A stretch of DNA of 64,000 nt, taken from Dictyostelium discoideum (Eukaryota). The DNA lies in NCBI GenBank assembly GCA_000004695.1, contig CM000154.2, forward strand, positions 4,032,001 through 4,096,000. The letters run 5' to 3'. Numbering within the stretch: position 1 is the stretch's first letter; every line of letters starts with the position of its first letter. The notes below the pieces were generated by a model. The model did no database searches, had not been told where the DNA came from, and was given only the letters and a program-made list of their open reading frames with translations. Of the stretch, positions 2,032 through 53,606 are shown piece by piece. A program made the position numbers and the translations under genes.

Positions 2032-5497
<3,466 letters not shown>

Positions 5498-49598: not shown

Positions 49599-50234
49599 AT
49601 GGAAATATATAATAATAATAGTATTAGTATTAATAATAATAATAATACCTTTAATATTTTTAAAAATAATATTAGTTTTACTAATAATAATTATAATAAT
49701 ATCAATTTTAATAATAATAATAATATTAATAATAATAATAATATTAGTTTTGGTGGTAGTAGTAGTGATAGTGAAAATGATGATAATTATTCATCTTCAC
49801 CAACATCACTTTCATCATCAGTATCATCATCAGTATCATCATCAGTATCATCATCACCATCAGTATCATCATCATCAATTAATAAAAAACCAAATGGATT
49901 AGTTCAATGTAATCATATTGGTTGTGAAAGTGTTTATACTCATCATACTGGGCTATCAAGACATTTTAGAAATTTTCATAAAACTTATTGCTCAAATCCT
50001 GATATTTGTGATGGTTGTATAAGTAAAAGAAAGAAGGAATCCAAAAAACCAGTTCCAAAAGTTGATTGTAACCATGAAGCTTGTATTAAAAAATTATCAA
50101 AAAAGAATATAGCGAAACATCATAAAATGCTACACCCAAATTGTTCAATTGATTGCCAAGAATGTTCTTCTGCTGGTGTTTCAATTCTTTTAAAATTAAA
50201 TAAATTTTTTTTAGATAAGAAAATTCCAATCTAA
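49599..50234 (+). CDS. Putative C2H2-type zinc-finger protein of 211 aa, with an N-rich N-terminus and poly-S/V repeats.
   Basis: There are two C-x2-4-C...H-x3-5-H units: CNHIGCESVYTHHTGLSRHFRNFH and CNHEACIKKLSKKNIAKHHKMLH. A further Cys cluster follows (CSIDCQECSS). The gene is a single exon. Confidence 0.5.
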   Translation: MEIYNNNSISINNNNNTFNIFKNNISFTNNNYNNINFNNNNNINNNNNISFGGSSSDSENDDNYSSSPTSLSSSVSSSVSSSVSSSPSVSSSSINKKPNGLVQCNHIGCESVYTHHTGLSRHFRNFHKTYCSNPDICDGCISKRKKESKKPVPKVDCNHEACIKKLSKKNIAKHHKMLHPNCSIDCQECSSAGVSILLKLNKFFLDKKIPI

Positions 50235-50311: not shown

Positions 50312-50631
50312 TTATTGAAATTTCTTTTTTTCCATTAATAGTATTTTTTCATTTTCAAATGTTAATTTTTTTTGATTTTTTGTTAAGATTTTATTAATTT
50401 CATTAAGATAAGAAAGTGATTCAGATAAAATTTTTTCTATTGTTATTTCTTTATTATTTGGATAGGTATCAATTTTTTTAATACTTTTTAAAACAAATGG
50501 TAATTTTTTATTGATTTTTTGAATAAATTGGTTTCTTATATTTCTACTTCTAGTTTCAACATTACAATGAGCTTTTTTTTTAATTTTTTCATCAATCACT
50601 ATATTTTTTTTACTATTTTTTGTGTGTTTAG

Positions 50632-50685
<54 letters not shown>

Positions 50686-50746
50686 AGTGGTTGATTAATA
50701 AAAAAAAAAATATAATTTACAATGCTTACCTTTTAATTCTTTTCAT
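50312..50746 (-). CDS. Small basic helix-loop-helix (bHLH) protein of about 101 aa. Two exons, approximately 50746..50730 (17 nt) and 50612..50312.
   Basis: Exon 1 is ATGAAAAGAATTAAAAG followed by a GTAAGC donor at 50729. An AATAG acceptor ends at 50613. The phase-2 join gives MKRIK-S-KKNIVIDEKIKKKAHCNVETRSRNIRNQFIQKINKKLPFVLKSIKKIDTYPNNKEITIEKILSESLSYLNEINKIL. The basic region, with the conserved E (NVE) and R residues (RSRN), then helix 1, loop and helix 2, fit the bHLH consensus (…H..vErrRR..iN..f..L...lP.......K...L..a..Yi..L). Confidence 0.6.
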
Positions 50747-51172
50747 TGTTAGATTTGTTTTTTTAAATTAAAAAAAAAAAAAAAAAAAAAATTAAACTTT
50801 TTAATCAAAAAAAAAAAAAAAAAAAAAAAAAAGACTGACACCAACATTATCAGAATCCAGATTTTTTTTTTTATTTTTTTTTTTTTTTTTTAAACCGATA
50901 TTCTAAACATTTTATTTTTTTTCTTTGAATTCAATAGTGATAATAAAATTTTTTTTTGAATTTAATTGTTTGGTTTTTTATGTTAAACAAAACTTAATTC
51001 AAAATATATATAATTTGTTTATGTGTTTTCAAAAAAGATATTTTTTTTTTTTTATTTTTATTTTTTTATTTTTTTATTTTTTTCGGTAAAATAAAAAAAA
51101 TGCCGTTTACCAGAAGGCGTCACGGATATTTGATAGTTTTCGTCATTTTTATAGCCAAACTGATAAAAATTT

Positions 51173-51203
<31 letters not shown>

Positions 51204-51294
51204 TTAAAACCAAACAAAAAAAAAAAAAAAAAAATCAATCAGTAAAGTACTTTTTATTTTTTAATCCAAACATTGAATAAATACTAATTTTAAA

Positions 51295-51316
51295 ATGCCT
51301 TTAAATCTTGTTGCTA

Positions 51317-51372
<56 letters not shown>

Positions 51373-53606
51373 TAATATTATTTTATTTATTTTTTAATTT
51401 TATTTAATTTTTACTTTTATTTTGATTTTTTAAAAAATAATAGAAAATCTTTAAGAGATAATGAAGAACATTTAAATAAAGCTCATGAAGAAATCAAAAA
51501 TGCTTTAAATGGTGAAGAATGGATTATCGAGTTTGACTGGGATACTATCTTTGATAAAATTGATGAGTTTGCCAAAAAACAATTAGTAATTATTATATTA
51601 TTTTTATTATAATTATTTTTTTATTTATTTTAAATCTAATATTTTTTAAAATTATAAAAAAAAAAATAATAAAAATAATAAAGGGAGAAGTATTTTATAA
51701 AAATTTATGTCCAAATATTTCAAAATGTATTGTTAATGCATGCAAAGATGAAATTACTAAAGAAAGTATAATTAATGCAAATTCAGCTAAAAAGATTGTA
51801 TTAATTGTTAATGAAGATCCAAAGAATACAGTTTATTGGAAGTATGAATTTAATGGTGGTCAATTAAATCTTTTATTTAAAAAAGGTTGTTGTAATTTAT
51901 CAGATGCTGCAAATTTCCAATTATATAAAGTTATTCCAAGTGAAGGTTCTTATACATTAGCAACTCGTCTTAATTTAAAAAAGAATCAAGAGAGATATGA
52001 TGTTGCTTTTGAAAGAATTAAAGCTGTTACTAAAAGAGATTGGTCATTCGATCAAGAATCAATGGAGAGTGTTTATCCAACCGCTTTTGAAACTGATAGT
52101 TCACGTGAACAATTTGGTGATTCATTTGCAACAGTATTGGAAAATTGTGCACAAAATATTGAAAAAAGATGTAAAAATGATATCACTTTGGAAAGTTTTA
52201 ATGAAGTAACCGCCAATGCAAGATTCAGTTTTAGACATTGTCCAAAACAAACCACTGGTTATTGGGTTTGGTCATTTAGTAATGGTGATGTTATAATTTC
52301 ATTCAAATCAGTTTGTAATATCTCTGAAAATGCAAATTTTGATTTCGTTAAAGTTTTACCAGTTCCAGGTGTATTCTCTTTAGCCGCTCGTTTAAATTTG
52401 AAAGAAAGTCAAGAGAAATTCGATACTGTATTTGAAAGAATTAAACAAGTTACAAATGTGGATTGGTCATATGATCAAGAATCATTAGAACAAGTTTATC
52501 CAAAACTTGAAGATAGAAATAAAGAAAGATTAGGTGAAATCTTTTCAGATATTTTAAAATACGCCGCTGATAATATTACAAAGAGGTGTAAAAATGAAAT
52601 TACTTTAGAATCATTCATTGAAGCAACTTCAAATGCTAAGTTTGTATTCCGTCATAATGTAAAGCTTAATGGATACTGGGTTTGGTCATTTGAAAATGGT
52701 GATTTAGTCATTACATTCAAATCGATTTGTAATGTGTCTGATAATGCAAATTTTGATTTCATTAAAGTTTTACCAGTTCCAGGTGTTTTCTCTTTAGCAG
52801 CTCGTTTAAGTTTAAAAGAAAGTCAAGACATGTTTAATAGTGCATTTGAAAGAATTAAACAAGTTACTAAAATGGATTGGTCATATGATGAACAATCATT
52901 AGAACAAGTTTATCCAACACTTGAAGATAGAAATAAAGAAAGAATTGGTGAAATATTTGCCGAGGTACTAAAATACGCTGCTGATAATATCGTTAAACGT
53001 TGCACAAAGGAAGAGATTACTTTAGAATCATTCATTGAAACAACTTCAAATGCTAAAATTGTGTTCCGTCATAATGCAAAACTTAATGGATACTGGATTT
53101 GGTCATTTGAAAATGGTGATTTAGTTATTACATTTAAATCAATTTGTAACGTTTCTGATAATGCAAGTTTTGATTTCATTAGTGTTTTACCATCACCAGG
53201 TGTTTTGACATTGGCTTCAAGAATTAATTTAAAAGAAAATCAAGAGAAAATTCAAGAATCATTTGAAAAAATTAAACAAGTATTGGGTAGTGATTGGAGT
53301 TATGATGAATCATCAATTGAACAGGTTTATCCAAAGCTTGAAGTACATAATAAACCACGTGTTGGTGAAGTTTTTGCTGATATCATTTGTAATATCAGTA
53401 AAAATATCGTTAAAAGATGTTCTGATGAACTTGTAAGAGAAGCATTCATTGAATGTGTTTCAAATGCTAAAATAGTTTTCCAATTCATTGAAAAACAACC
53501 AACATATTGGGTTTGGAAATTTGAAGGTGGTAATTTAATTGTATCATTCAAATCAATTTGTAATATTAGTGATAACTCAAATTTAGACTTTGAAACACTT
53601 CTTTAA
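51295..53606 (+). CDS. Protein of about 695 aa built from five tandem copies of an unrecognised ~135-aa domain. Three exons, approximately 51295..51317, 51444..51585 and 51684..53606.
   Basis: Exon 1 is MPLNLVA with a GTAAAA donor at 51318 followed by an A51 tract. Exon 2 (RKSLRDNEEHLNKAHEEIKNALNGEEWIIEFDWDTIFDKIDEFAKKQL) ends at a GTAATT donor at 51586. Exon 3 starts after an AAAG acceptor at 51683 and continues in frame into ORF 52062..53606. The repeat consensus is CKNEITLESFIEaTSNAKFVFRHN.KLNGYWVWSFENGDLVITFKSICNVSDNANFDFIKVLPVPGVFSLAARL.LKESQ..F...FERIKQVT..DWSYD..SLEQVYP.LEDRNKERIGEIF. Copies start near 51690, 52130, 52540, 52950 and 53360. The last copy is truncated, and copies 3 and 4 are about 85 % identical at the nucleotide level. 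Confidence 0.7.

What the first reader, a model, noticed from the sequence alone, without database searches (positions are those of the whole stretch)
50312..51317. Tiny two-exon bHLH gene with a 17-nt first exon, divergent from the repeat-domain gene
On the minus strand, ATGAAAAGAATTAAAAG|GTAAGC (50746..50730) splices to the ORF at 50612..50312. The product of about 101 aa is essentially only a basic region plus helix-loop-helix. The basic region carries the conserved NVE and RSRN pattern, and the rest is KINKKLPFV...ITIEKILSESLSYLNEINKIL. A micro-exon like this is missed by ORF-only gene finding. bHLH factors are rare in amoebozoans. The gene shares a ~550-bp bidirectional intergenic region (A46 and A40 tracts plus a GC-containing core at 51101..51145) with the 5x-repeat gene, which suggests co-regulation.
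Basis: partly seen in the sequence, partly recalled or inferred. Interest (0 to 1): 0.55.

Follow-up and report, generated by a model that had tools for sequence, protein, structure and literature searches.

The report
Annotated small gene, unproven bHLH
The two-exon gene is real but is already in GenBank as the Dictyostelium discoideum hypothetical protein DDB_G0290463; its resemblance to bHLH transcription factors is weak and fails every accepted membership test, so the bHLH label is a lead and not a finding.

Summary
The window is D. discoideum AX4. Five other Dictyostelium genomes keep the micro-exon, splice sites, intron phase and divergent neighbour. dN/dS is 0.2-0.4, so it is a real, already annotated, clade-restricted gene.

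The bHLH call is not established. Pfam HLH gives no hit for any of five orthologues scanned. An exhaustive profile search of 1.84 billion proteins finds no relatives outside the family. The Atchley 19-site motif is matched at only 9/19 sites, a level reached by 55% of shuffles. Fold searches return only generic helical hairpins.

A weak in-register similarity persists: hhalign P = 1.4-3.1e-4 (39-53% probability), 0/300 shuffles as good, and BMAL1's basic region/helix 1 is the top PDB hit (E = 0.07-0.5). This is not significant after multiple testing. I estimate about 0.3 that it is a true, eroded bHLH.

Corrections: the product is 105 aa, not about 101. The long A-tracts are 52 and 50 nt and lie in the two first introns, not the intergenic region. 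AX4 carries a 16-nt frameshifting deletion in the C-terminal tail.

The parts
50730..50746 (-). Exon 1 (17 nt: ATG AAA AGA ATT AAA AG), encoding MKRIK plus two bases of Ser6.
   Evidence: 16 of 17 nt are invariant across AX4 and L001-L004, with one synonymous ATT>ATA change in D. dimigraforme. D. firmibasis has a 23-nt exon 1 in the same phase.
50613..50729 (-). Intron, 117 nt, GTAAGC…ATAG, phase 2. It contains the 52-nt homopolymer (A52 on the + strand, 50632-50683).
   Evidence: Orthologous introns are 66-189 nt and indel-rich. Read-through gives a stop after 6 codons.
50312..50612 (-). Exon 2, including the TAA stop (50314-50312). The complete CDS gives the 105-aa protein DDB_G0290463.
   Evidence: dN/dS is 0.20-0.42 in 9 of 10 pairwise comparisons. 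There is no in-frame ATG before codon 99.
50498..50581 (-). Residues 17-44 (KKKAHCNVETRSRNIRNQFIQKINKKLP): the proposed basic region and helix 1. This is the family-invariant core AH..VE..SRNIR….KINK.LP.
   Evidence: It aligns in register with BMAL1 [30 protein letters not shown] (PDB 4h10_A; E=0.072 / 0.23 / 0.51).
50453..50497 (-). Residues 45-59 (FVLKSIKKIDTYPNN): the variable segment that would be the loop.
   Evidence: This is the least conserved internal stretch in the family alignment. hhalign places a 10-residue insertion here relative to bHLH.
50384..50452 (-). Residues 60-82 (KEITIEKILSESLSYLNEINKIL): a conserved amphipathic helix, the proposed helix 2. The heptad L68-L75-L82 continues to L/F89 and I96.
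   Evidence: AF2 predicts a helix at 60-84. TAL1 loop/helix 2 is the top single-sequence PDB hit at E=0.71, but there is no bHLH hit with the profile of this half.
50345..50350 (-). Site of the AX4-lineage 16-nt deletion, which frameshifts the C-terminal tail after residue 94.
   Evidence: DNA alignment; protein tails. An identical protein occurs in a second D. discoideum assembly.
50747..51294 (.). The 548-bp intergenic region shared with the divergent gene DDB_G0290465. It holds conserved islands: GGTGTCAGTC (50833-50842), TTTACCGAAAAAAA (51077-51090) and the GC core (51101-51145).
51295..53606 (+). Divergent neighbour DDB_G0290465: exons 51295-51317 (23 nt), 51444-51585 and 51684-53606. It encodes 695 aa with five ~135-aa repeats and no Pfam family.
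   Evidence: exact match to XP_635741.1.

Best explanation
This is DDB_G0290463, a genuine and already annotated two-exon gene.

Shown:
- It encodes a 12.6-kDa, very basic (pI about 10), predicted all-helical protein.
- The protein is found only in the D. discoideum / D. dimigraforme / D. firmibasis clade.
- It evolves quickly (59-67% identity where its neighbour keeps 82% to over 90%) but is under purifying selection.
- Its conserved core is laid out as a Lys/Arg-rich segment, an amphipathic helix ending in L-P, a variable segment, and a second amphipathic helix with a Leu heptad.

Inferred:
- The most likely mode of action is a small nuclear protein that dimerises through its helices and uses the basic N-terminal part to contact nucleic acid. 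That would mean it works like a minimal bHLH or bZIP-type factor.
- Descent from the bHLH superfamily is not demonstrated. The resemblance is sub-threshold by every standard test, and several residues that are almost universal in bHLH domains are replaced by family-invariant or near-invariant non-basic residues (Arg at site 12 by S28, Lys at site 50 by I/L64, Arg/Lys at site 10 by T/K26).
For: Gene reality:
- Exact identity to XP_635740.1.
- Micro-exon, donor, acceptor and phase conserved in 5 other genomes, with indel-rich introns against a frame-preserving exon 2.
- dN/dS 0.20-0.42 in 9 of 10 pairwise comparisons.
- Synteny conserved.

Clade restriction:
- Only same-family hits among 1.84e9 representatives and 5.8e9 proteins.
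- Nothing comparable at the syntenic position in D. purpureum or H. album.

Physical features:
- pI 10.1-10.4 and net charge about +15 over the first 60 residues.
- AF2 helices at 9-54, 60-84 and 91-104.
- Heptad L68/L75/L82/L89/I96.

bHLH membership not shown:
- No Pfam HLH hit.
- A purpose-built HLH HMM gives 3.7-6.3 bits, within noise.
- Atchley motif 9/19, at chance level.
- The helix-2 half has no bHLH hit in PDB.
- Adding the more divergent D. firmibasis member does not raise the signal materially.
Against: - The bHLH-like similarity is better than composition alone explains. hhalign scores 24.4-25.5 over 59-62 columns covering the basic region, H1, loop and H2 in the correct register (P 1.4-3.1e-4). 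None of 300 column shuffles reaches it (null 9.6±1.9, max 16.5).
- All five family members outrank all 475 natural ORF chunks of the window.
- BMAL1 bHLH chains are the only PDB hits for the N-terminal half.
- The base-contacting triad His5-Glu9-Arg13 (H21, E25, R29) is invariant in the family.
- The mechanism itself (dimerisation, nucleic-acid binding, nuclear localisation) is inferred from sequence only. No expression or localisation data were accessible.
Confidence: 0.55

Rival explanations
1. It is a true but strongly eroded bHLH (possibly bHLH-Zip-like) domain protein, a MAX- or Id-sized 'domain-only' factor. It would form a parallel four-helix-bundle dimer. Because it keeps His5/Glu9/Arg13, it would recognise a class-B-type E-box (CACGTG-like), with weakened backbone contacts because sites 10, 12 and 50 are not basic. 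It would then be the only classical bHLH domain in D. discoideum.
For: - hhalign full-domain match in register: P=3.1e-4 (A1) and 1.4e-4 with 53% probability (A5).
- 0/300 shuffles reach the score, and the reversed alignment scores 9.7.
- The family occupies the top 7 of 482 scored sequences/chunks; the other 475 are the window's ORF chunks.
- The top PDB hits are bHLH chains for both halves in separate searches: BMAL1 and TAL1.
- H21/E25/R29, L43-P44 and IL..S..YL..I are invariant while the 'loop' varies.
- The E-x-R-x-R spacing resembles SREBP's EKRYR (own knowledge).
- The reference profile A2 is a valid bHLH profile, since 120/120 top database hits carry PF00010.
Against: - No Pfam HLH hit for any of five members scanned, and HMMER scores are in the noise.
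- Atchley 19-site motif: 10 mismatches, beyond the loosest published cut-off, and reached by 551/1000 shuffles and 20/293 natural chunks.
- The near-universal R12 and K50 are replaced by S28 (family-invariant) and I/L64.
- Against a profile of real BMAL1/MAX sequences, only basic+H1 aligns (30 columns, P=0.005).
- D. firmibasis alone scores 17.4, no better than the best unrelated chunk, and loses Asn17.
- Window-level multiple testing turns P of about 1.4-3e-4 into E of about 0.07-0.15.
- No intermediates link the family to any bHLH.
Confidence: 0.3
2. It is a young, lineage-specific orphan encoding a basic helical or coiled-coil protein with a function unrelated to sequence-specific DNA binding (for example a structural, RNA-associated or protein-interaction adaptor). 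The bHLH-like pattern would be a chance product of K/N/I/L-rich amphipathic helices.
For: - No homologues outside one small clade.
- Fast evolution relative to the neighbour.
- The AX4 lineage tolerates a frameshifted tail.
- Chance-level Atchley count in this composition.
- Other weak PDB hits are viral fusion or phosphoprotein coiled coils.
Against: - The conserved positions are not merely heptad hydrophobics. They include polar and charged motifs (AH..VE..SRNIR, QKINK.LP) in the basic segment.
- The in-register profile match exceeds both shuffled and natural nulls.
Confidence: 0.13
3. It is not a functional gene, but an annotation artefact or decaying pseudogene in an AT-rich spacer.
For: - No expression data were available here.
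- The AX4 allele carries a frameshifting 16-nt deletion.
- There is no database function or domain.
Against: - dN/dS of 0.2-0.4, with pS up to 0.39.
- The frame is preserved through residue 94 in six genomes while the introns and flanks are full of indels.
- Start codon, splice sites and intron phase are conserved.
- The deletion affects only the last ~11 codons.
Confidence: 0.02

Closest known systems
bHLH domain (Pfam PF00010; for example BMAL1/ARNTL, MAX, SREBP, TAL1)
   Same: - Overall layout and lengths: basic segment, amphipathic helix ending in L-P, variable loop, second amphipathic helix.
- In-register His5/Glu9/Arg13, Asn17 (in 5 of 6 members), hydrophobics at sites 20 and 53/54, and Tyr60-Leu61.
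- Protein size is comparable to MAX or Id 'domain-only' factors.
- Weak hhalign and PDB matches.
   Different: - No Pfam hit.
- 10 of the 19 Atchley sites are mismatched, including Arg12 (S28), Lys50 (I64), Arg/Lys10 (T26), Leu23 (I39) and Ala57 (S71).
- The loop is about 10 residues longer than the profile consensus.
- The AF2 monomer is not in bHLH geometry.
- No evolutionary intermediates.
LsrA (DDB_G0274217), the only D. discoideum protein filed under HLH by Forbes et al. 2019
   Same: Both are D. discoideum proteins whose bHLH assignment rests on weak similarity.
   Different: LsrA is a large Nulp1/TCF25-type protein with a DUF654 domain, is conserved across all Dictyostelia, and is picked up by InterPro IPR011598. 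DDB_G0290463 is 105 aa, clade-restricted and not picked up by any domain model. The LsrA sequence could not be fetched here, so the two were not compared directly.
Lineage-restricted 'orphan' small basic proteins of Dictyostelium
   Same: No detectable homologues outside a narrow clade, K/N/I-rich composition, short length, rapid divergence.
   Different: Unlike a neutral or de novo ORF, it shows purifying selection, conserved polar motifs and conserved gene structure.

Membership tests
bHLH (PF00010 HLH) | Score at or above the Pfam gathering threshold for the HLH model. | tested here: not met
   No HLH hit even at E<=10 for the AX4 protein or for any of the five family members scanned. An HMM built from 25 canonical bHLH domains gives 3.7-6.3 bits with --max, within the window's noise.
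bHLH (PF00010 HLH) | Atchley 19-site predictive motif with fewer than 8 mismatches (Atchley 1999), or at most 9 (Toledo-Ortiz 2003), as tabulated in PMC4312455 and PMC3127390. | tested here: not met
   9/19 matches, so 10 mismatches, at sites 10, 12, 16, 23, 24, 47, 50, 57, 58 and 64. 551/1000 shuffles and 20/293 natural chunks reach at least 9. The 25 true bHLH controls score 10-19, median 16. If I-for-L at sites 23 and 64 and L-for-I/V at site 58 are accepted, the count is 7 mismatches, but that is not the published rule.
bHLH (PF00010 HLH) | Basic-region base-contact residues: Glu9 (93% of bHLH), with His/Lys5 and Arg13 for CACGTG binders. | tested here: met
   H21, E25 and R29 have H-x3-E-x3-R spacing and are invariant in all six family members.
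bHLH (PF00010 HLH) | Backbone-contact basic residues: Arg/Lys10, Arg12 (91%) and Lys50 (93%). | tested here: not met
   T26 (K in D. dimigraforme), S28 (invariant) and I64 (I or L; V in D. firmibasis).
bHLH (PF00010 HLH) | Statistically significant profile-profile or sequence similarity to known bHLH domains. | tested here: inconclusive
   hhalign P=3.1e-4 at 39% probability and P=1.4e-4 at 53%. Empirical nulls are favourable, but E is about 0.07-0.15 over the window's 475 chunks. PDB E-values are 0.07-0.7. Only basic+H1 aligns to a real BMAL1/MAX profile.
bHLH (PF00010 HLH) | Helix-loop-helix fold forming a parallel four-helix-bundle dimer. | not testable with these tools
bHLH (PF00010 HLH) | Sequence-specific binding to E-box DNA. 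| not testable with these tools
   This needs EMSA, PBM or DAP-seq. There is no CACGTG in the shared intergenic region.
Protein-coding gene (two-exon model DDB_G0290463) | Conserved start codon, splice sites and reading frame; purifying selection. | tested here: met
Protein-coding gene (two-exon model DDB_G0290463) | Spliced transcript observed. | not testable with these tools
   No RNA-seq or EST resource was available. A full-text search for DDB_G0290463 returned no papers.

The most novel reading that the evidence does not exclude
DDB_G0290463 and its orthologues are an unrecognised, extremely divergent bHLH(-Zip-like) micro-factor. It would be the only classical bHLH domain left in group-4 Dictyostelium, retaining the His5/Glu9/Arg13 base contacts but having lost three backbone contacts, and it is invisible to Pfam and InterPro. 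It would show how far a bHLH domain can erode and still be kept under selection, and it would add a transcription-factor class to D. discoideum.
Probability: 0.3. Interest if true: 0.5.

Novelty: already known. Interest (0 to 1): 0.25.

Why it matters
If the bHLH reading were true, it would matter to Dictyostelium developmental biologists. Curated transcription-factor inventories list only LsrA under HLH for D. discoideum, and LsrA is really a TCF25-type protein, so a 105-aa domain-only bHLH would be a new and easily testable regulator. As things stand, the result is mainly corrective. The micro-exon gene is already annotated, and the domain call does not pass accepted thresholds. The case also shows how readily K/N/I-rich Dictyostelium helices mimic short transcription-factor signatures, since 55% of shuffles match the Atchley motif equally well.

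Tried and rejected
- Pfam and NCBIfam scans of the AX4 protein and orthologues gave nothing relevant.
- The exhaustive HMMER profile search of 1.84e9 representatives returned only the family itself plus P0007, a degenerate repeat translation that I judged spurious.
- The loop/helix-2 half as a profile against PDB gave no bHLH.
- A reference profile built from real database hits turned out narrow (BMAL1/MAX) and matched only basic+H1.
- The synteny walk through the conserved neighbour found a D. firmibasis orthologue. It found no positional orthologue in D. purpureum or H. album, and only the paralogous locus in D. citrinum.
- The E-box scan was uninformative.
- A leucine-zipper extension beyond L82 was considered but is doubtful: D. 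dimigraforme has a Pro at about position 86, and AF2 breaks the helix at 85-90.
- A literature search for DDB_G0290463 found nothing, and the gene is absent from the Forbes 2019 tables.
- LsrA and the group 1-3 dictyostelid bHLH sequences could not be retrieved for direct comparison.

Full report
**Identity and observation**

The window is Dictyostelium discoideum AX4. On the minus strand, ATGAAAAGAATTAAAAG (50746..50730) is followed by GTAAGC. An AG at 50614-50613 precedes 50612, and joining the two exons gives a 318-nt in-frame CDS ending in TAA at 50314-50312.

The same sequence occurs in a second D. discoideum assembly. The micro-exon model is therefore the reference annotation, not something annotation missed.

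The micro-exon is needed. The unspliced message reads MKRIKR-stop, and exon 2 has no in-frame ATG before codon 99.

**Is it a real gene?**

Annotated orthologues exist in three further D. discoideum / D. cf. discoideum assemblies and in D. dimigraforme. A synteny walk through the neighbouring gene found a sixth member in D. firmibasis: L006 2862-3236, 102 aa.

- In the five closest genomes the 17-nt exon 1 is invariant apart from one synonymous ATT>ATA change.
- The donor is GTA[AG]G and the acceptor is TAG.
- D. firmibasis has a 23-nt exon 1 in the same phase 2.
- Intron lengths are 66, 93, 113, 117, 118 and 189 nt with many indels. Exon 2 carries only one in-frame 6-nt indel up to codon 94.
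- Nei-Gojobori dN/dS over codons 7-94 is 0.20-0.42 in nine of ten pairwise comparisons. The tenth (L003 v L004) is 0.66 at low divergence. pS reaches 0.39.
- Gene order is conserved in all six genomes: J-domain gene, small C2H2-listed gene, this gene, then the divergent 695-aa repeat gene.

The gene is real and under purifying selection. Expression could not be checked here.

**Surroundings**

The divergent neighbour is DDB_G0290465. Its exons are 51295-51317, 51444-51585 and 51684-53606, giving 695 aa and an exact match to XP_635741.1. It has five ~135-aa repeats and no Pfam family.

ATG-to-ATG spacing is 548 bp. Each lies in the first intron of one of the two genes. The intergenic homopolymers are only 18-26 nt.

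The GC core at 51101-51145 is present. Together with the adjacent TTTACCGAAAAAAA (51077-51090) and a GGTGTCAGTC motif at 50833-50842, it forms conserved islands in the otherwise poorly alignable spacer. Co-regulation remains a hypothesis.

**bHLH tests that fail**

1. Pfam HLH gives no hit at E<=10 for any of the five members scanned.
2. An HMM built from 25 canonical bHLH domains, run with all filters off, gives 3.7-6.3 bits. An unrelated window ORF reaches 4.4.
3. An exhaustive HMMER profile search of 1.84 billion representatives finds only the family itself and one spurious repeat protein.
4. The published Atchley 19-site motif uses cut-offs of fewer than 8, or at most 9, mismatches (PMC3127390, PMC4312455).
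   - The candidate matches at 9/19 sites, so it has 10 mismatches.
   - With a free loop length, 551/1000 shuffles of the protein and 20/293 natural ORF chunks of this window do as well.
   - The 25 true bHLH controls score 10-19, median 16.
   - The mismatches include the near-universal Arg12 (S28, invariant in the family), Lys50 (I64) and Arg/Lys10 (T26).
6. The loop/helix-2 half retrieves no bHLH from PDB when searched as a profile.

**bHLH tests that give weak support**

- hhalign of the family against the 25-domain bHLH alignment aligns the basic region, H1, loop and H2 in the expected register.
  - With the five-member alignment: 59 columns, P=3.1e-4, 39% probability.
  - With the six-member, tail-trimmed alignment: 62 columns, P=1.4e-4, 53% probability.
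- None of 300 column shuffles reaches this score (null 9.6±1.9, maximum 16.5), and the reversed alignment scores 9.7.
- As single sequences, the five members (19.1-24.8) outrank all 475 natural ORF chunks of the window. The best unrelated chunk scores 17.0 over only 17 columns.
- In PDB-wide searches the top hit for the family profile is BMAL1's basic region and helix 1, aligned as [30 protein letters not shown] against KIKKKAHCKVETRSRNIRNQFIQKINKKLP.
  - E is 0.23 for the whole profile and 0.072 for the N-terminal half, where all four hits are BMAL1 chains.
  - E is 0.51 with six members.
- The top single-sequence hit is TAL1's loop and helix 2 (E=0.71).
- H21/E25/R29 (His5/Glu9/Arg13), L43-P44 and IL..S..YL..I are invariant, while the putative loop varies.

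**Weighing the evidence**

The similarity exceeds what composition alone gives, but it is not significant once selection is counted. A reader scanning about 475 ORF chunks turns P of about 1.4-3e-4 into E of about 0.07-0.15. The PDB E-values are all at least 0.07 per query. A proteome-wide scan at this level would yield several chance hits.

Adding the more divergent D. firmibasis member neither strengthened nor weakened the signal. The score was 24.8 against 24.4 with the same alignment method. Alone it scores 17.4, and it has lost Asn17. Against a profile of real BMAL1/MAX sequences, only basic+H1 aligns (P=0.005).

I put the probability of genuine bHLH descent at about 0.3.

**What it most likely is and does**

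Shown: a 12.6-kDa protein with pI about 10, carrying about +15 net charge in its first 60 residues. It has two conserved amphipathic helical segments and a heptad at L68/L75/L82/(L/F)89/I96. It is restricted to one small clade, and it diverges far faster than its neighbour: 59-67% identity, against over 90% for the neighbour in D. dimigraforme and 82% in D. firmibasis.

Inferred: a small nuclear protein that dimerises through its helices and contacts nucleic acid with its basic N-terminal part. It would work like a minimal bHLH or bZIP-type factor whether or not it descends from one. If it is a bHLH, the His5/Glu9/Arg13 rule would predict a CACGTG-type site, with weakened backbone contacts.

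**Context from the literature**

Forbes et al. 2019 (PMC6873476) count four bHLH families in Dictyostelia. They list only LsrA (DDB_G0274217) for D. discoideum, and DDB_G0290463 is absent from their tables. LsrA itself is a Nulp1/TCF25-type DUF654 protein with "weak homology to the bHLH" (PMC3066132). D. discoideum therefore has no clear classical bHLH, which makes the claim more interesting if true and also lowers its prior.

**Verdict**

The gene model is confirmed but already known. The bHLH interpretation is an unproven lead that fails the standard membership tests. Several descriptive details needed correcting. Interest is low to moderate.

Noticed in passing
window 50345-50350 (minus strand, after codon 94): The AX4 allele lacks 16 nt that are present in four other genomes, and D. 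firmibasis encodes the same long tail. The deletion frameshifts the tail to KILLMEKKKFQ* instead of MIVNLKNTINGKKEISIKI*. The identical protein occurs in a second D. discoideum assembly, so this is a real allele of the lab-strain lineage and not a sequencing error.
   Followed up: partly
window 51295-51443: The divergent neighbour DDB_G0290465 also starts with a micro-exon (23 nt, ATGCCTTTAAATCTTGTTGCTAG|GTAAAA). Its first intron carries the A50 tract. Both genes of the pair therefore have a tiny first exon followed by a homopolymer-rich intron.
   Followed up: yes
window 51295-53606; loci L005, L007, L008, L009: DDB_G0290465 (five ~135-aa repeats, no Pfam family) is conserved out to Heterostelium album (58% identity). 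It has a paralogue next to an adh_short gene in D. citrinum and D. firmibasis. It is an uncharacterised, well-conserved dictyostelid repeat protein.
   Followed up: partly
window 50833-50842, 51077-51090, 51101-51145: There are conserved islands in the shared 548-bp spacer. GGTGTCAGTC lies about 90-100 nt upstream of the small gene's ATG. TTTA(A)CCGAAAAAAA together with the GC core lies about 150-220 nt upstream of the neighbour's ATG. All are recognisable in at least 4 of the 5 other genomes. They are candidate promoter elements.
   Followed up: partly
L003 around 3100-3140 (D. discoideum strain assembly GCA_054859355.1): This strain has three extra bases at the intron's 3' end, creating tandem AG acceptors (…AAAAGTAG|T). 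Its annotated protein uses the upstream one and gains a Ser (MKRIKSSKK).
   Followed up: no
window 49599-50234 (+): This ORF lies tail-to-tail with the small gene, 77 bp from its stop. It corresponds to DDB_G0290461, which Forbes et al. 2019 list as a D. discoideum-only C2H2 factor. As read, the ORF has no Pfam hit and is not an exact database protein, so the annotated model probably differs (an intron or a different start).
   Followed up: no
window 19840, 34828, 52102, 53356: CACGTG occurs four times against 0.72 expected (2/100 shuffles reach 4). Two copies lie inside the DDB_G0290465 coding sequence and none in the shared intergenic region. This probably reflects GC-richer coding DNA.
   Followed up: no
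literature (PMC3066132, PMC6873476): LsrA is the only D. discoideum protein filed under HLH in the curated transcription-factor inventory, yet it is a Nulp1/TCF25-type DUF654 protein with only weak bHLH similarity. D. discoideum may therefore lack any canonical bHLH.
   Followed up: partly
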